NCBI RefSeq assembly: GCF_018977255.1
Contig: NW_024704752.1
Location: 11,780,001 to 11,844,000, forward strand
Source of the DNA: Callorhinchus milii
Taxonomy: Eukaryota
Direction: 5' to 3'
Length of the DNA stretch: 64,000 nucleotides
This document shows positions 6,351 to 49,450 of the stretch, one piece after another. The translations under genes and the position numbers were made by a program. Numbering within the stretch: position 1 is the first letter of the stretch; every line of letters starts with the position of its first letter. The notes under the pieces were generated by a model. The model worked only from the letters and a program-made list of their open reading frames with translations. It was not told the origin of the DNA and made no database searches.

Positions 6351-9098
6351 ATTGCTATTATTTTCACCTCAACTTTATAAGTAGAATACAGTATATTTGC
6401 TTCATGAACTGTATCTAAACTACTTTCCTTGTCTTTTTGCCACAAACATGTGTTAGCTGCTTAATTACAACAGTTAAATGTCTTTCACTGTGAAAAAGAT
6501 AAGGAACGTAAGGCTAGTCTTCCATTTCTTATTTCTTCATGTGAACATTTTTTCCTCCAGAAAAACATTAGTCAACAGTCACACTTTTGAGGATTTAATC
6601 ATGACATTGAGTCCTGTTTGTTGGATTTCACTCACAAAATATAGTCAATTCAGTTTACAGTATATTCTGTGAAGTGCTTTGAGACATCTCAAAGACATGA
6701 TACTGCGCTATATCAAATGCAGGGATTAATGTTATCATTATGACATGAGGTCTGAGGTACAATTTATCTGAGCCATAATTACATAGAAAGTTAATAGCTG
6801 GTCTGGAGAAAGTCTGATCTTCGCTGAATGCACTAAAGTAAGCAAAGCTGTTAAATGGTCCCTTAGATTGTATGCTTTTTATGTGTCTCTTCCAGCCTGC
6901 CAAATTGTCAATTAGAGATATCTCAAAATCACTGCAATATAACTTGAAATAGCTGGAGATATATTTGAAAGATTTCCAGATGTCTTTGATCCAAATAATT
7001 ATGTCACCAAATACTTTCCATGTTCAAGTACCGGAGTTGAAGTTTTAGAGTAAGATTTCCTATTTAGAAGCACTTGCAAAGAATTACATTGAACTGCCCC
7101 ATCAATTTCTTTTTAAACTCCACTCTGTTTTTCTTTCATTTTTTGCCATGTTTCTCCTCTCTTGGAAGCAGTGACTCATGTTGGGATTTGAGTCCACCGG
7201 TGCTGGCAACCTCCTGCTACCTCCTTCAAGTGGCCATTAGGTTAGGCTACAGTGATTGTTGGCAGACTGTTTAAACGTGTGGTGCTTTCACAACTAGTCT
7301 GATCTTCTGTATTCTCCTTGGGACGTCCTCGCGATGTGAAACGTGCTATACAAATGTAATTTTGTATTCACACGTGCAGGATGGCAGTTAAGAATGAAAA
7401 ATGTAGTTGATTTCTCATCTTTTTGGCTTTGGGATAATTGCACCCTACTCACTTGCTCTCCCCTCTCAGCTGCTCCCAATACTGTCCCAGTTGAGATCAT
7501 CAATCAGTGTACACTTCAACACTACACACACTGCTTCTTTCACAATGAAATATCAAGGGATGGCCTGTGTTGATTTTCGATTATTCCGAAACAGTGATAT
7601 AACCGACCGGTAGCATTGTTGAGGGGGACATAAGCTTCGAAGAGTTATTGAACTCAACAGCTCGAGGGAAGTAGGAACAACGGGAATAGAGACAGAATTT
7701 CCATTTCAAAACAGAGGGCCGTTGAGCTGATGTGAGCCATTCAGGCTCTTCAGGTTCAAACTTCAAATAGCTCTCAAAAAGGTAGGAATTTTTGCAACTT
7801 AAAACTCTCCCAGATGGGGAACAGTTTCAATATCCAGTTACCTATTCCTTAATTGATTTGGAGAAACAGATGAATTCTGTTAAATGCAAGATTTTGTCTC
7901 TTGAGCTGCTCAGCATTATCCTTATAAAGCTCAGGGCAGACTCCATGACTGCCAGATACTGAACTCTATACCTCCCAACTGGCCCCTGTGGAATTTCTGT
8001 CATGCAAGATTCTTTTGAAAGATAACAGTCTCTTCAAGTTAACAGCTAATGTGAAAATAATAGAAACGGACGTTACAGCAGCTGTTTGCAGTATTATGAA
8101 ATACAACCTTGCTCTGACCAAAGCGAGTCTGATCTAAGTGAACGAATTGTTTCAATGTTTCACGGAGATAATGTTTATACACACAAAGTGGGGAAGTATC
8201 GGCAAGTTCTGAACTGCACAACATCAAATCAGGAGCTAACTTCCTGATACAGACCTAACAAACATTTGTTTTTTTTTTTGAAAGATATTTTGAAAGATTT
8301 GCAGATATTGGTAAATGATGATTTGATTCACCTAAAAAAAATAACATTTCAATTGCAATTCATCCAACTCATTCCAGATATATTACAAGTATTTCCCATG
8401 TATCTGGAGATGACCATTTCTTGTATGCTTGATTACACGCTTGTCACTTGTAGAGATTTGCAATTTATTTGGAGATGAGAGAGATCTCAAGTTGCGACAA
8501 TTTTGCCACCCAAGTGAACTTATTCTTTCATACTCTGTTGGAAGCCTGTAAATCAGTTTCAAATCATTTGCAAATTTATCTTAGTTCTGAAGTACCAAGT
8601 ATTTTACCAGCAATGTAACAAAAGATTTTTTTCTTTCAGCTGTGCTGAAATGATTTTAAAATATGAGTTATATGTTCTTTTTGTCAGATAACACACAGTT
8701 TAATGAATAAAGACAGTTTAATCTATCAATTCACCTTTTGGCAGAGTTAGTGCAGTTTCCATTATGACTCCTATTATCTCAATTTAATCTCCTGAGGGAA
8801 AGTTCTGGACAAACCTCAAAAGTTAATATAAAAATGCCACAATATTCACCTATTCTGACTTCTCTATTCCGTGCCGGCCTGCTATTTATCTATTTCTCTT
8901 TCTACCTCCTCCTCCCATAGATATGTTGACCCTTTACAGGTCCCAAATTCCACCTAGAATTAGCCTGTAAAACCATGCTATTTAACATTGTACAGAATTG
9001 TGAAAAATTCTTATACATCATTCGTAATTCGGAAGCTATTTTCCTTTTTAAGAACTGTGGAAAATTGCATTCTCTTTTAAGATTGAATTGAAGATTCA

Positions 9099-22497: not shown

Positions 22498-24689
22498 TCC
22501 ACAGGAGTTGTGTGTGCACTGCGTCCCACAGTTGGCTTCAGTCAAGTGAAGAAGTGAAAGGATTCAATATACGGCAGTATCCAACAAACTAAAAGATGGT
22601 TAAGACTTCCAACTAACGTGGCAGTGAGCCATCATGACAAATCCAATAATTTACAACAGGGGAAAGAAAAATTCTCACAAGATCATTTCTAGATAATTGC
22701 AAGTTGGAAAGTCTTATTTGTTCCTCAAAAGAATTTATTGTGTCCAGCTGCCAGAAAGCTTAGTAAGAATTCTCCATTTAGTGTATTGGAAAACATGCAA
22801 TAAAGAACAGAAAAATACAATCCAATACTAAAAGAAGCTTGCGGTTGTATCCAGTTAATTAAAGTCAAAAAAATTCATCTGCCTCAATGATTGTTTTAAG
22901 TGGGCCCAACTCCAAAAAGCATTTGGCATCCGGCACCAGAAATGTAGAACGGTCATCAGAGCGACAATATAGTTTCTAAGAAAATAACCATGACATTTTG
23001 AAGAGGTTGGACCATCTGGTTCTAATATTAAACTGCTCAAACGTTAATAGAACAAATTTCTAAGTATTTGTGCACCTTGGCAGTGAGGTAGTGTAACCTT
23101 GAGGGAAATGGCTCACTTCCTCTCAGATGTTTGTTAAACGCCAATGATTAGCAATTAAATATTCACACTTCTTCAGAAATATTGTCAGTTTATCCCAAAT
23201 ACTCATGTGTGCTTCTGATCGCAATCATAGGACTTAGAGTCAACATATGCAATTATATGTTTTTCAAAGGATATAATGCATGGGGGAAGAATGTATAAAA
23301 CAAAGGTCCAGGGACACGGATGATGTCAAACTATAGTTTTTAGTGCACACAACATTCACTTCTCTTACAGTGGCTCAATCAGCTGAGCCTTGATCTCATG
23401 TATGCTGTCAGTTGGGACCGCAGTTAAACTTTTGAGATTTTCACCTTAGGTATGATTTAACCAGGCTGACTGACACCTGAATGATGCAAACTGAGACAGT
23501 AGGGCAAGTCCAATTTTCAGACTGGAATTCAGCTTTAGATGATCTGAACTCCATTTTAAAGTAATTTTGAGAGGATCATTTTTATTTTCCACTCGGGCTA
23601 CTCAAGTTTTCAGGAACTGAAAGTCGCAATGCTATTCACTTTCATTGGAATAAGCAGCTGCAACCATCAACCGATCAAACCACAAGCTACTTACAGATTC
23701 CAAATTTCTAAGGTGAATTAGCTCAACATGTTCGATCTATTCAATACATTCTAGATTTTCCTTTATTTCATATTTCACATATTGTGAAATGGTCACTCAA
23801 GTCCTTCCAACACTCTGAGATGCTGTCTGAGATACTTGTCAAATGAAACTTTTTGTTGTTGTAGTTCCTCCTGAAGAGTTTTACAAACAGTGTTAGCACT
23901 GTAATTTTATGCCGACGACATGTTTCGGACTTCTTTTGCTTTCATTCCATTTTGAATGTCAAAACTGTTTTTCAATCTTTTATTAAATACTTGAGGTATG
24001 GAAACAATTTTTCCAGTATTAGTACATAGTGACAGAACTGTTGAAACATGTGTTTGTGATGCAATTTTCCAGCTTTTTCCAAAGTATAGTGCCCTAGTGT
24101 TACAATTTATGTTTCAGAGGCTTTGCTGCCAACACACAGTTTCAAAGACTGTGAACCACGAAAACCTGAACAAAGATTCCATACAGACTTAAAATACATG
24201 AATGTGTTTAAAGGAGTAAAAAACGGTTCAATTTAATATTTAAAAACTCAACTTCATTGCAATTCATTGCTGTCCCCAGGCTAGAAAAGAAAAAGAAAAG
24301 TAACCTTGGTTTCTGTTCCTGATCATTATCCAAACACCTATATATATATCTATATAAATATATATATATTATAAGACGCTTTTGCATTGAGATATATATA
24401 TATACACACCTTGCCTTTCATGTTGGGATGCTATCTTAAAGGGCTCATAAGATTTTACTATAAAGAGCTTTGGAACATCCTCTCTACATGAAAGATGCTA
24501 TATAAATGCAAATTTGTATTGTATTGTATTTGCAGGTGAATATGACAGTAATGTCCCACAAACAGGCATAAAGTGAATGAACAATCTTATTTGGAGGTCA
24601 GAACACTGGGAGAAACTCCCTTCTACTGGAAAGTGTGAGAGTGTCCACATCAGGCTTAGTTGCATCAAAGTATTTCTCATATCCTGTAG

Positions 24690-24855
24690 GAACTCTGAGC
24701 AAGATACCCAAGTTTGTGCTTTGAGTCTATAGCCATCAGGAATTAGACTATTTTTTCTCTAACTCATTTCAACAGATAAAACCAACCCACAGATAAAGTA
24801 AACTTTCAGCGCGTCAGTATGGGCTTGATTCATACCCAAGTCCCAGAGATGGAGT
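24690..24855 (-). mobile_element. LF-SINE-like relic
   Basis: aactcatttca...cagat...actttca...tgggcttgattcatacccaagtcccagagatg resembles the reverse complement of the LF-SINE 5' half (tgaaatgagtt, gaaagt, gggttcgaatccagccca), compared from memory. Confidence 0.5.
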
Positions 24856-28562: not shown

Positions 28563-29944
28563 TTTTTCTCACTCATCCCTCAGCACTGACTCAACCAGAA
28601 TGGAATCTATAATTATCCCATCACTCAGGGTTCTTAGACTATGTTATTCATAGGTTACATCAGATTTCTCTCAGTGGTGTTAAAATTGTAGAACCTTAAC
28701 TGCTGACCCGTCTGAAATCAGTTACTTTAGTAGAGAGCAGCACTCAAATCTGTGACACTCTGATCCATTTAACTTAGTGCTACATTCACTGGCCATTAAA
28801 AATGAACATGGTAGTGACTTTTTGCTGTCAATATATTGCCCTGGACTATATGGATTTAGTGTTGTATATACAAATGTTCAGATTCTGCAACTGGAATAAG
28901 TAATGGAATGGTTTTACAATAGCAGCTATTAATATTTTGGCAAATGCCTACAAATGCGATCCATTAACACCCAATCGACTGCACGTTTATTCCGTGTGCA
29001 TTCAAGAATGAAGAATTAGCTAAATGACTAATTTATCAAAATTAAGATTGATGGTTTGGGGAATTCCTTCCATGACATAAATGAGTTAAGAAAAGATGAT
29101 CAGGGCCCTGCTGGATACAGCCATGGCTAATTTACTTGCAGGCATTCAGATGTTATGATAAGGCTAACATTACTGGAAGACAAATAATTCATGATGTGCA
29201 GGTTTGCTCTCACTTTAAGGGGAAGATTGGATTACGTTTCTATCTGTCTGTCTGAAGAGATGCTGCAGAAAGCAAGCGTTTACAGATTTTATGTCCTCAA
29301 ACATGCTTCATTCAAGCAGAAACAACTAATTTGTTTCAGCTCATTTATATTCATGAGGGTCAATGTTACATCGATCACTAAAATCTGCAAACTTTTCACT
29401 ACTTCTTTACAATTACATTTCTATTTACAGTGTAAAGCTGCAACAAAAAATTCACTACTTATTGATCAGTGTATTGCTATTGCTTGCCATTCATAATGTT
29501 GAAGTTTAATCTGAATAATTGTTCATTCAATTGCTACTCAAGAAAAATATTCTTGATGAAAAAAATTTTGCAAAAGGTTTTTGTGTGAAAGGAGGAATCC
29601 GTGTCATTTGTAATTGCGGTGGTACAATTATGTGACTCAATTGATCCACTACCACAATTTTTATTGGCATAAAGTGATTCATGTTACTTGCGAACAATGG
29701 GACAGCAGAGCTAACTACAGTTCCACCATTTTGACTGAAATCAGCTACATTAGATATTTGCATGATACCTAGCAGTGCATGTATTCACTGAGCCTTTAGG
29801 CCATTTCCAATAACTGTTCAATGAAGATGGTTCCCTCCCCTTTTAAGTCGAATTTACTGAAGGTCTGATTTTTCATCATTCCGCTGTTAGCAATCGATTC
29901 CAGGACCCAAAATATGATAGGATGCAAGCGATTATTAATAAAAA

Positions 29945-30310
29945 TAGTAATCCTTGCATTTGATATAGAGCCCTAACAAGTTGTTGAGACGTCTCAAAGC
30001 ATTTCACTGTAAAGTGGATTGACTGTATTTTGTGGGTGAAACAAAGCAGTCAGTTGAGCATTGCAGTGTCCCACAAACAGCCGTGGAGTGAATGACCAAT
30101 TTTTAAAATATATTTGGGGGATTGTTGGCCAGAATGACGCTGAAAGAATTGAACTGACCCAAACCCTGGAACTGGCAGCAGATGACATCAAAGAAGATGG
30201 AAGTATACCACTGTGTCAAATTTCAGAGTTTCAGAGAAACTCCTTTCTCTTTTCGAATGGTGTCACAGGATCTTTAACATCCACCCGAAGAGATAGGTGG
30301 GACCTCTTAT
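29945..30310 (-). mobile_element. Deu-SINE interrupted by a ~95-bp foreign insertion
   Basis: Tail at 29945-30010, Deu core at 30050-30100, ttgttggccagaa up to 30134. The SINE resumes at gagaaactcc (~30234) and continues ttcgaatggtgtcacaggatctttaacatccacc. Confidence 0.85.
30134..30227 (+). pseudogene. TXNL1: Captured fragment of thioredoxin-like protein 1 (PITH domain) coding sequence
   Basis: Translates DAERIELTQTLELAADDIKEDGSIPL, then after a frameshift gtc aaa ttt cag = VKFQ. The recalled vertebrate TXNL1 sequence is EAERSEPTQALELTEDDIKEDGIVPLRYVKFQ, giving 18/26 identities plus VKFQ. Confidence 0.8.
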
Positions 30311-30596
30311 AAAACAGAGAAACGTTCTTAAAATCTGTATTTTTTTAACAGTTATTTAAGTCATTTGGTAGGGCAGTTTATGTAATAGTATATCCATATA
30401 TCCAGAAATTAAGAAAAATATGCTTTGAGAAGAACTAGCTCACAGTGAATGTGTTAGAAATACATACATCGAACAAGAAATCTCTTGACCTGTGGTTACC
30501 ATCATCATAAGTTATGGTCTTAAGCAGAGCATCTTGCAACGTTCAACGGGATCCTAATCTTGAGAATACAATTCCAAAGTACGTCATAAAACTGAC

Positions 30597-30622
30597 CTTA
30601 TAATTGAACTGGATGGAAATCT
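30597..30622 (-). CDS. Candidate 26-nt microexon (phase 1 to 0: (E)ISIQFNYK)
   Basis: Acceptor catctctgtttcctacag| and donor AAG|gtcagt. Phase-compatible with both flanking candidate exons. Confidence 0.45.
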
Positions 30623-31644
30623 CTGTAGGAAACAGAGATGTCACAAGGGTACAGTCAGGGGGTGCTGTTGCTCTTCTCAGGTCAGGGTTAAAGTTACATT
30701 CCGTATAAGGGGAGTTCAAATTACAATGTATATACACGTTACTTGCGAGGGAAAGGAATTCTCGAGCTCAAACTGTAAAAATGTTTCATTTCTCAGCTTC
30801 CCTCAACTTAATAAGCACATGTATGCACCAAAAAATGTCCTGATTTCAATCAGAGCATAAAATGACTTGGCAACAACTTTTTAAACGGACAGGTCACTCA
30901 TTGAGTGGCTGAACTGGTTGCAGTCTTACCAGGTGGTTTAGAAAATTCTGAAGGCCGCACATCAGTTGAATTCCTCGTTGGGTACACGGTTTTCCAACGT
31001 GTTGACAAAACATTGGTTCACAAGTCACGAAAACAATTGTGAAGCCAAAAAAATTATTTTGATAAGTAGGGTTAGAAAATAGCTCAAAGGGATGCTTTGC
31101 TTCTCACACTCCAATTTCTTCCACAGAGAAAGATTGAAAGAAAAGCACTTACATTTTTAGAGTCCCTATAAAACTGAAAAGTCTCAAAGCATTTGACTAC
31201 TAATATCTAACCCCACCACAACCCCAACTAGCTGAGATCAACTAACTAGGCACAAACTAGGGATCAAGACTTACTTGCTTGCATATCTCAATTATTTGTA
31301 GTGGAATAGTGCCACTTATCATCACAACTGAGTTTTCATGCAGATAAGCATGATCACTCTTCTTCTATTTGGATAGTGCAAACATGTGGGTGGTACAGCA
31401 TTTTTTCGCAATGTTTATATCTGGTAAAATAGTAAACAGCATACTTTCTCGCAAGGTCAACCTCAATGTGTACAAAAATAGAGGAATGAGCTGCCATTTG
31501 CAACAGTTCTCGTAGAATCTCAACAAGATTTTTCTTTCTCCAATCCAACTGGTAGCAAGTCTGAACTTCAGAAACACATGCCAGTATTACGCCATGAAAC
31601 AAGGCATTAAATTGAAGGAGAATGTCTATCCAGTTCAATTACAG

Positions 31645-38225: not shown

Positions 38226-38365
38226 ATATAGTGTAAAGTGAATTGACTGTATGTTCGTCCACAAATATGCAGTCAATTCACTTTACAGTATATTATGTGA
38301 AGTGCTTTGAGATATCTAGAAGACATGAAAAGCGCTATATCAAATGCAAGGATTATTATTTATTA
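38226..38365 (+). mobile_element. SINE 3' end with a fold-back inverted duplication at its 5' junction
   Basis: 38226-38252 is the reverse complement (25/27) of 38267-38293; a normal tail follows. Confidence 0.85.
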
Positions 38366-47245: not shown

Positions 47246-49450
47246 TCAAAAGCAATACACCCCCATTTGTTTTGTAGTGTACCCTCTAGAGGGGCTAATA
47301 TTTTCCTCATGCTCTGAACTCCATTTGTAATGTAGCTCTGAGCATTCAATCCTGTCAAGTGAAAGCTTCTCCAACTATGGTAAAAAAAAGTCTTTGCAAT
47401 GTGAAAATGGCAGGTTCCATCAACCTGTCTGCCTTCTCGACTCCTGCAAAAGACACATATTTCGACTTGAATGTTTTAGTTGTTATTTCCTGAAATTACA
47501 GTTCTGTGAACCACAAGGAATTTCTATTTTCCAAATAAAAAATACTTTTTGCGCACAGGAAGCTGGAACTAATTCTGGGAGTGTGGAAGAAAGACAGGCT
47601 GGTGGCAGGCATTTCATCACTGCAGATTTGGTAATTAGCATTATTACTACTCTTGCTTCTAATGTAACATGTGAATTACCTCTGTGCTGAATGGCCTGAA
47701 TGTGATTATTTCATTGTCTCATTGAAGAATTTCTCCAATTGTCCAGTTCTTTCAACCACTAACTATCATGTGTGAAACCAGGGCTATGCAGATCAGGAAG
47801 GTCCCTGGTGTGCGTTAAGTTGTTTTCAGCAGGGTGTTACAACAGGCTTCAGTACTCGTAAGGCTTGGGTGATGGAAGATATCAGACAATCTTTATGTGC
47901 CTAATTCATTTCCTGTGATCCTGTTCGAAAGCACAATAAAATATGTGCATGTGGAATAAGGACCCCCTACTTCCTTCAACCCACCAGCTCATGTGGAACC
48001 AGATAGATTTCCTATTGATTTGCATTAATATCTGTGTTGGACAGCACCTTCACTGTGTTACGTGAACCCTTTCAAGGGGAGGAACAGATTAAGAGCGTGT
48101 GAAAAATTTACAACAAACACAGGAAACTATTTGTTTTGCGTTCCGCCTTTATCTTTTCAATAATGCTCTGTGAGGTCAGATTTACTGCTTTGCACAATTA
48201 TTTATTTATGGATCTTTCTGATCTTTGTTTCTGTGGGAATTGTGAGCAACTGTTCCTATCGCAGGCAGTAGAACAATGGGCTCTTCTGGCCAGAGTCTGC
48301 AACGTAAACATAGTCTCTGACCAATTAACTCTTTAAAGAGTGCAGCAGCGGCAGGTCAATATGAAACCAAAAATGAGATTACAATATTTCCTCCTATTGA
48401 ATGAGTATTGAATAGAGGCGCCAAATCTTTCTACTGATTCTGTTGGACTCTCCTTAAGGTCAGGTTCATTGAGGATCATTTTCTCCTCACAGTGATTCAC
48501 TAAAGATGCTTCAGTTTATTTGTATCTATCGTCCAATGTAACAGTGATGATCTCTGAATATCTTGTACATCTCAATTATTTCTACTCAAATAGTCTGCCA
48601 TGTGGTCAGACTGAGTGGCAACACCCGAAATTGAAGCACAAAACAGTACGAGTGCAGTTCAAATGAGAGCTCCCTCTAATGAATAGTACTAAATAAACCA
48701 GACATGGACTTAAATCCACAGCTTGTCTCATTTTTATGGATCTCAGCTGAAGCTTTCAATAACATCTCATACATTGAACTCGCATGCTCCATTTACAAGA
48801 TTTCATGTTCCAGAAAATGCAATAAAAAATGTATTACCATTGCTGGACTGAGAACTGCATTATGTTTCAAGACCCTGTAATGTCTACTGTTGCTGTATAT
48901 CTGCAATAATGAACAGTTGTCAATCTCAGACAGAATCTTTTTCAAAGTCTATTGGAACTGATTTAAACACAACTGTTCAGCTTGATTTGACTGATGTGTT
49001 GACAGACATGGCACTATTCAAAAACAGAAACGAGTTTCTTAGTCAACAATTCCCCCCCAATAAAATTGACCATTCACTTCATGGCTGTTTGTGGGACATT
49101 GCTGTGTGCAAATTGGCTGCCGCATTCACTCACAAAAACATATAATCACTACACTTCAGAGGGCAGCTGTTTACTGTCAATCTCGGCTCCAGTGGTTTCA
49201 GGTGAGGAGTGGGGAAAATCAGAGAAGCAAATATATTAATAAAAATTATACATACTTCCTTCTAACATTCCATAAAATGAATCGTCTAGCACATACATGC
49301 ACACTTAATTATAATCTTTGCATTTGATATAGGGCCTTAACACGTCTTTGAGAAATCTCAAAGTGCTTCACAGAATACACTGTAAAGTGAACTGATTGCA
49401 TATTTTGTGGGTGATATAATCTTTTAACAAAATGAGCTTGCTGAACAATT

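What the first reader, a model, noticed from the sequence alone, without database searches (positions are those of the whole stretch)
30134..30236. TXNL1 coding fragment captured inside a SINE: templated insertion with no poly(A) or TSD
Seen: a minus-strand Deu-SINE is broken at ttgttggccagaa|...|gagaaactcc. Other copies here (5505, 15308, 60112) have only ~6-7 nt in that gap, but this one carries ~95 nt. The insert translates DAERIELTQTLELAADDIKEDGSIPL/VKFQ and runs antisense to the SINE. An 8-nt tandem duplication (tttcagag x2) sits at the right junction, and there is a ~5-nt internal deletion. Knowledge: the peptide matches my recollection of the TXNL1 PITH domain (EAERSEPTQALELTEDDIKEDGIVPLRYVKFQ). 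Inference: a housekeeping-gene fragment was used as a patch in double-strand-break repair, or came from RT template switching. As I recall the human gene, this segment lies within one exon, so RNA and DNA templates cannot be told apart here.
Basis: partly seen in the sequence, partly recalled or inferred. Interest (0 to 1): 0.7.

Follow-up and report, generated by a model that had tools for sequence, protein, structure and literature searches.

The report
Gene scrap patched into dead SINE
A 95-base piece of one exon of the housekeeping gene TXNL1 sits back to front inside an old repeat on another chromosome of the elephant shark, likely the scar of a DNA break patched long ago, a known and probably harmless kind of event.

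Summary
Window 30133-30227 is a copy of nt 57-156 of one 173-nt internal exon of the host TXNL1 gene (elephant shark, other contig; 13 substitutions in 95 nt, one 5-nt deletion, an 8-nt duplication at the right junction). It splits a minus-strand SINE, antisense to it. About 6 SINE bases are lost, each junction has 2-nt microhomology, and there is no TSD or poly(A). It is the only extra copy found in the genome; contigs of other runs of the species hold both junctions. Best reading: a templated repair patch (class 2 TSI / interchromosomal repair-mediated duplication), 0.8. RNA versus DNA template cannot be shown; I lean to RNA. Template switching during SINE first-strand synthesis is disfavoured by orientation. 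The kind is catalogued, and this scan has noted such patches before on other DNA. One oddity remains: the patch equals today's exon over 35 nt, including two lineage-specific Ala codons, yet looks shark-like outside that tract, and a related species appears to share the patch. Later gene conversion between patch and live gene could explain this; unproven.

The parts
29930..30132 (-). 3' part of the host SINE, with an L2-type tail ending near 29935; likely SacSINE1-CM (family name from PMC5499810 and a recalled consensus, not from a library match)
   Evidence: nhmmer model 223-433, E 4e-47; 21 differences in 168 from the majority of 29 copies
30133..30134 (+). left junction: 2-nt microhomology (GA in both SINE majority and donor; the first base is substituted here)
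30133..30227 (+). copy of nt 57-156 of a TXNL1 internal exon (G000:C1:135256374-135256473), sense on +, antisense to the SINE
   Evidence: 13 substitutions in 95 aligned nt
30157..30191 (+). 35-nt tract identical to today's host exon, including two Ala codons where sharks, rays and organism C have Thr at the first and Pro (or Leu/Ser) at the second
   Evidence: P about 0.02 for so long a run (post hoc)
30213..30214 (+). site of a 5-nt deletion relative to the exon, between two CGT repeats of the donor; it shifts the reading frame
30221..30236 (+). 8-nt tandem duplication over the right junction (can equally be placed one base left, 30220-30235)
30234..30235 (+). right junction: 2-nt GA microhomology shared by donor and SINE
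30234..30312 (-). 5' remaining part of the same SINE copy (5'-truncated near 30312)
   Evidence: nhmmer model 140-218, E 5e-19; 12 differences in 71

Best explanation
A 95-base piece of one TXNL1 exon lies antisense inside a SINE copy on another chromosome, likely copied in as a patch when a germline double-strand break in that already-dead SINE was repaired. Shown: the two SINE halves are collinear with about 6 bases lost; each junction has 2-nt microhomology with the donor; there is no TSD or poly(A); the donor exon is intact; no third copy was found. Inferred: a broken end primed on TXNL1 sequence through GA, a polymerase copied about 100 nt, and the new strand rejoined the other end through GA (synthesis-dependent microhomology joining, of the polymerase-theta or endonuclease-independent RT type). 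The template is not shown. The geometry allows direct copying of TXNL1 mRNA from the right-hand end, or copying of the gene's DNA. I put RNA or cDNA at about 2 in 3, because a distant, purely coding donor is much likelier from mRNA than from random DNA (inference). The 5-nt deletion and 8-nt duplication are slippage products made during or after the repair. The event is old, of the order of 100 million years, and the piece is predicted to have no function.
For: Unique donor: the exon as query finds 2 places in the genome, itself and this one. Among the 40 scored of 268 candidates for the insert with flanks, only this place and the gene match the insert part. All TXNL1 exon hits lie on C1; the window fragment is the only TXNL1-like piece elsewhere among 12 matches, and none lies in 464 kb around the site. 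Collinear SINE halves. Microhomology of at least 2 nt at both ends has P 0.022 in 200,000 random donors. The donor start resembles the lost SINE stretch at 9 of 14 bases, P 0.014, post hoc. Same-species contigs match the left junction (X2, 30105-30186, 0 differences, only 28-29 flank bases) and the right one (X1, X2, X3, 30162-30274, 0 differences). In PMC2671141 Table 1, microhomology plus deletion without poly(A) is a listed breakpoint type (9 of 39 proximal, 1 of 12 interchromosomal cases without poly(A)). Loss of function: frameshift, no splice sites carried, and no Pfam hit over cut-off in 140 of 660 candidate window frames scanned.
Against: Two-base microhomology is weak, and the left one needs an assumed substitution. 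The insert's own divergence (7-10 of 95 after polarising with sharks) is not significantly lower than the SINE's (33 of 239; Fisher P 0.13-0.47), so 'SINE first, patch later' is not shown. No empty orthologous SINE was seen in a relative. In PMC2671141, 17 of 29 interchromosomal cases inspected were retrotranspositions, so distant donors are not by default repair events. The dating signals conflict (see full report).
Confidence: 0.8

Rival explanations
1. The chimera formed while the SINE was inserting: the L2 reverse transcriptase left the SINE RNA, copied TXNL1 sequence and returned 6 nt further on.
For: Ages of SINE and insert overlap. SINE and donor resemble each other at the left junction (9 of 14). 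The copy is 5'-truncated about 80 nt beyond the insert, as abortive insertions are.
Against: Orientation: first-strand cDNA would be the + strand, which carries TXNL1 in sense, so mRNA cannot be the template; it needs two jumps and an antisense or DNA template. Point estimates put the insert younger (non-CpG 4-7 of 89 against 26 of 224; P 0.06-0.42).
Confidence: 0.1
2. Homology-directed repair: the broken SINE invaded a SINE copy in the TXNL1 intron beside the exon and copied from there.
For: SINE pieces lie about 130 and 520 nt downstream of the copied piece, and one covers the same site.
Against: There the SINE pieces are sense to the exon, here antisense. No intron sequence was copied. Identity to those pieces (73%) is no higher than to other copies (67-88%). 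SINE hits are dense (186 in 464 kb), so a neighbour is expected.
Confidence: 0.04
3. Remnant of a longer TXNL1 retrocopy or gene duplicate, later overlaid by SINE sequence.
For: The piece is purely coding.
Against: The flanks are two consecutive halves of one SINE; no other TXNL1 piece in 464 kb or among genome-wide matches off C1.
Confidence: 0.03
4. A chimeric SINE subfamily, or an assembly artefact.
For: None found.
Against: Two places only; 13 substitutions and 2 indels against the gene; junction contigs in other runs of the species (these come from one study, which may include the assembled sample).
Confidence: 0.02

Closest known systems
Repair-mediated duplications found as interrupted TEs (Pace, Sen, Batzer, Feschotte 2009, PMC2671141; parts 1-3 of 8 read)
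   Same: TE split by an insert of at least 50 bp found at one other place; microhomology 2-9 nt and deletion 1-15 nt; no poly(A). They list 254 interchromosomal cases in human, and exon pieces among donors.
   Different: Their confident class is donors within 5 kb; this donor is on another chromosome, the group they set aside as mixed. Here the species is a holocephalan and no empty orthologue was seen.
Class 2 templated sequence insertions, TSI/TSIP (Onozawa and Aplan 2016, PMC5110952; parts 1-2 of 4 read)
   Same: Distant donor left intact; size inside the 73-414 bp of experimental TSIs; microdeletion and microhomology; no TSD or poly(A); donors enriched for transcribed sequence.
   Different: Theirs are experimental or polymorphic and near-identical to the donor; this one is 14% diverged and looks old. 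Polymorphism was not seen in the same-species runs laid.
SacSINE1-CM, the Deu-domain SINE of Callorhinchus milii (Luchetti et al. 2017, PMC5499810; abstract and Results part 1 of 2 read)
   Same: The host repeat has a widely shared 3' part and a rarer body, as described for SacSINE1-CM against CmiSINEs, with an L2-type tail.
   Different: No consensus library was available, so the family name is not tested. The parts read mention no captured gene pieces.
Short-template ectopic gene conversion (Steyaert 2026 preprint 10.64898/2026.08.26.747289, abstract, Results part 1 of 3, sections 9 and 26 read; review PMC3924818, passages read)
   Same: The preprint reports a conversion signal for 17-91-bp templates, also between chromosomes; this bears on the 35-nt identical tract.
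   Different: Those are single-base changes between near-identical human k-mers. The review gives about 200 bp as the efficient minimum and much lower rates near 80% identity. Here a tract with several differences would have to convert within a 95-nt homology.

Membership tests
Class 2 TSI / repair-mediated duplication | Insert of at least 50 bp that interrupts an otherwise collinear acceptor | tested here: met
   SINE model 140-218 and 223-433 either side of a 94-nt gap
Class 2 TSI / repair-mediated duplication | One identifiable, intact donor elsewhere in the genome | tested here: met
   2 places only; exon intact and equal to the named host protein
Class 2 TSI / repair-mediated duplication | No TSD, no poly(A) | tested here: met
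   sequence against 29 SINE copies
Class 2 TSI / repair-mediated duplication | Microhomology, microdeletion or filler at the junctions | tested here: met
   2 nt each side, about 6 nt lost; P 0.022 for both; the left one carries one substitution
Class 2 TSI / repair-mediated duplication | Empty pre-insertion site in another allele or species | tested here: inconclusive
   Organisms B and C hold orthologous flanks, but no listed contig spans the site
Proximal RD of Pace et al. (donor within 5 kb) | Donor within 5 kb on the same chromosome | tested here: not met
   donor on C1, acceptor on C11
Processed pseudogene / class 1 TSI | Poly(A) tail and TSD | tested here: not met
   neither present
Processed pseudogene / class 1 TSI | Exon-exon junction | tested here: inconclusive
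   piece starts 56 nt after the acceptor and stops 17 nt before the donor site
RT template-switch chimera | Both parts in the same transcriptional sense | tested here: not met
   SINE on minus, TXNL1 sense on plus
SacSINE1-CM (Deu-SINE) | Match to the Deu domain / family consensus | not testable with these tools
   no repeat library; name rests on PMC5499810 and recall

The most novel reading that the evidence does not exclude
The patch is older than the split between the elephant shark and other chimaeras, and long afterwards a short ectopic gene conversion between this 95-base dead scrap and the live TXNL1 gene on another chromosome homogenised about 35 bases. In its boldest form the scrap was the donor and wrote two amino-acid changes (Thr-Pro to Ala-Ala) into the working protein. 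I put conversion in either direction at about 0.2 and the scrap-to-gene direction at about 0.08.
Probability: 0.08. Interest if true: 0.6.

Novelty: new member of a known kind. Interest (0 to 1): 0.22.

Why it matters
As a repair patch it is one more case of a catalogued process, here in a slowly evolving holocephalan genome, and it changes no view. Its modest value is as a fossil: it keeps older states of a TXNL1 exon that has changed at several residues in this lineage. It would matter more if the mosaic pattern is gene conversion, because a repair scar of under 100 bases on another chromosome would then have exchanged sequence with, and perhaps recoded, a conserved housekeeping gene. That is testable with any chimaera assembly.

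Tried and rejected
Pfam on the fragment: 0 of 2 queries; the PITH family search of the genome missed it too (5 matches, none here), so profile searches are too blunt for such pieces. Protein search with the open frame across SINE-insert-SINE: no hit. Two searches with the exon peptide and two cluster look-ups showed no sequence recognisable as a second chimaera TXNL1 (15 of 28 members of the shark cluster are listed). No RNA holder listed, so expression is untested. Organism D (X15) gave no piece on the insert at depth about 5; no contig of organism C was laid on the insert form: holes prove nothing. Host gene context: nothing over Pfam cut-off in 140 of 660 window frames; in the flanking 400 kb, 61 of 145 picked frames gave only 4 LINE-type hits; the site may be intergenic or in a long intron. 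Reading the two indels as a polymerase-theta signature: not claimed, since the SINE halves carry several indels too. Literature search for C. milii + SINE + Deu + TXNL1: 4 papers with at least 3 terms, none holds TXNL1; this one search is all that stands behind 'not in print'. PMC8421209 (MMBIR templated insertions) was seen in a search listing only. Supplements were not read; the case lists of PMC2671141 are human-centred and unlikely to bear.

Full report
What is there. The window is G000:C11:11780001-11844000. The exon peptide is identical to a protein named TXNL1 of Callorhinchus milii on a contig of the same length as C1, so the host is the elephant shark. Window 30134-30230 has two matches in the genome: itself and C1:135256375-473 (83%). 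That place is an internal TXNL1 exon of 173 nt with AG and GT ends; the other TXNL1 exons lie around it. The exon as query again finds only these two places. The copied part is exon nt 57-156, with 13 substitutions in 95 aligned nt and a 5-nt deletion between two CGT repeats.

The acceptor. A profile from 29 other SINE copies covers 29930-30139 and 30234-30312 on the minus strand as consecutive model stretches. The tail is at the left, so the SINE runs minus and the TXNL1 piece, sense on plus, is antisense to it. Against the majority of the 29 copies, about 6 bases are missing at the break and nothing is duplicated. Donor and SINE share GA at both junctions; at the left one the window has a substitution at a base where both parents agree. 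At least 2 nt at both ends arises in 2.2% of random donors. An 8-nt tandem duplication overlaps the right junction. Among 186 SINE hits in 464 kb there were 3 split candidates: this one, one filled largely by another repeat, and one with overlapping model coordinates that I did not inspect.

Is it real? Contigs of runs X1, X2 and X3 match 30162-30274 with no difference, and X2 matches 30105-30186 with none. The left bridge has under the 31 flank bases that the tool asks for, and the runs are of one study that may include the assembled sample. The 14% divergence from the gene argues against misassembly in any case.

Mechanism. Collinear halves, a small loss, short microhomologies, a unique intact donor and no TSD or poly(A) are the features of class 2 templated insertions (PMC5110952, parts 1-2 of 4) and of the repair-type breakpoints in interrupted TEs (PMC2671141, parts 1-3 of 8). 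The steps themselves are inferred: break, priming through GA, about 100 nt of synthesis, rejoining through GA. During retrotransposition the first cDNA strand would be the window plus strand, which carries TXNL1 in sense, so mRNA could not be its template. A broken minus-strand end at the right junction, however, could prime directly on TXNL1 mRNA. DNA as template fits equally well, since no exon border is crossed. I lean about 2 to 1 to RNA because coding exons are a few percent of such a genome (recalled figure) but a large share of mRNA; this is inference, not a test.

Age. The SINE copy differs from the majority of its relatives at 33 of 239 sites. Of the 13 insert-exon differences, 3 are better placed on the gene, leaving 7-10 on the insert; the two rates do not differ significantly. 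With the rough clock of PMC5499810 (about 1.05e-3 per site per million years) this is about 145 against 75-110 million years, with wide error.

An unresolved pattern. All 14 shark and ray sequences that cover the region have Pro, then Thr plus Pro/Leu/Ser, then Val/Ile, where the host protein has Ala, Ala-Ala and Thr (a 15th is too short). Outside 30157-30191 the insert looks shark-like: CTG, one CpG-type step from a Pro codon, against the exon's GCC, and an Ile codon against Thr. Inside that 35-nt tract it equals today's exon, Ala-Ala included (P 0.02, post hoc). Organism C, with orthologous flanks 8-19% diverged, has a TXNL1 piece that differs from the insert at 6 sites in 30172-30183, giving Thr-Pro, and at 10 elsewhere; the host exon differs at 0 and 10. 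That alone suggests insertion after the split from C, as a snapshot of an intermediate exon. But organism B, which shares most listed flank differences with C, has a contig matching 30187-30232 at 41 of 46 without a gap. The host exon reaches only 27 of 46 ungapped and chance is about 1e-5, so B seems to carry the deleted form, which would put the patch before the split. Against this: it is one 124-nt contig, I could not see its letters, its continuation into the SINE is not listed, and no such piece was laid for C. Ways out are (a) later gene conversion over the tract, in either direction; (b) reversal in C; (c) C's piece is a paralogue; (d) an ancestral polymorphism; (e) B's record is something else. 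Conversion explains all observations at once but has a low prior for 95 nt of diverged homology between chromosomes (PMC3924818, passages), though a preprint reports signals for short and interchromosomal templates. I give it about 0.2.

Function. The piece carries no splice site of its own exon and is frameshifted. An 84-codon stop-free frame runs through it (30058-30312), ordinary among 148 such frames in the window. No host gene was recognised nearby (partial scans). Expression is untested.

Verdict. Observation confirmed; a new member of a known kind. Earlier notes of this scan list similar patches in SINEs of lizard and sharks and one in this genome (unchecked, read after my reading was formed). 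Interest 0.22: the event is ordinary, and the small extra is for the testable mosaic.

Noticed in passing
G000:C1:135236001-135240935 and 135248590-135253527 (L033:1-4935, L034:2590-7527): Two TXNL1 exons appear twice, 12.6 kb apart, in a block of at least 4.9 kb at 99.6% identity that ends at an assembly gap (L033:4938-4962); likely a haplotype overlap in the assembly, possibly a recent partial duplication.
   Followed up: partly
L035:318-490 (TXNL1 exon): The elephant shark exon has several replacements at positions that are uniform or nearly so in 14 sharks and rays, suggesting faster change in this lineage.
   Followed up: partly
window 48960-49140 (-) and 24520-24720 (+): Two other SINE copies have small deletions at or just beside the same site as the insert; the site holds a short imperfect direct repeat and may be break- or slip-prone.
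   Followed up: no
L039:2668-3310: Another SINE copy split by a 446-nt insert whose first 200 nt match many loci, so likely a nested repeat.
   Followed up: partly
L055:7300-9700 (about 10-13 kb before the window): GC-rich stretch with many overlapping open frames and no Pfam hit; may be a CpG-island promoter or first exon.
   Followed up: no
G000:C1621:2774-3082 and 8529-8897: Two weak thioredoxin-like matches (28-30%) on an unplaced contig, one 123 codons long without an intron-sized break.
   Followed up: no
window 29720-29950 and 30340-31100: Non-coding flanks are alignable in organisms B and C, the right flank at about 90% over 500 nt; possibly constrained sequence.
   Followed up: no
window 38226-38293: A 68-nt imperfect palindrome (85%) at the edge of a SINE copy.
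   Followed up: no
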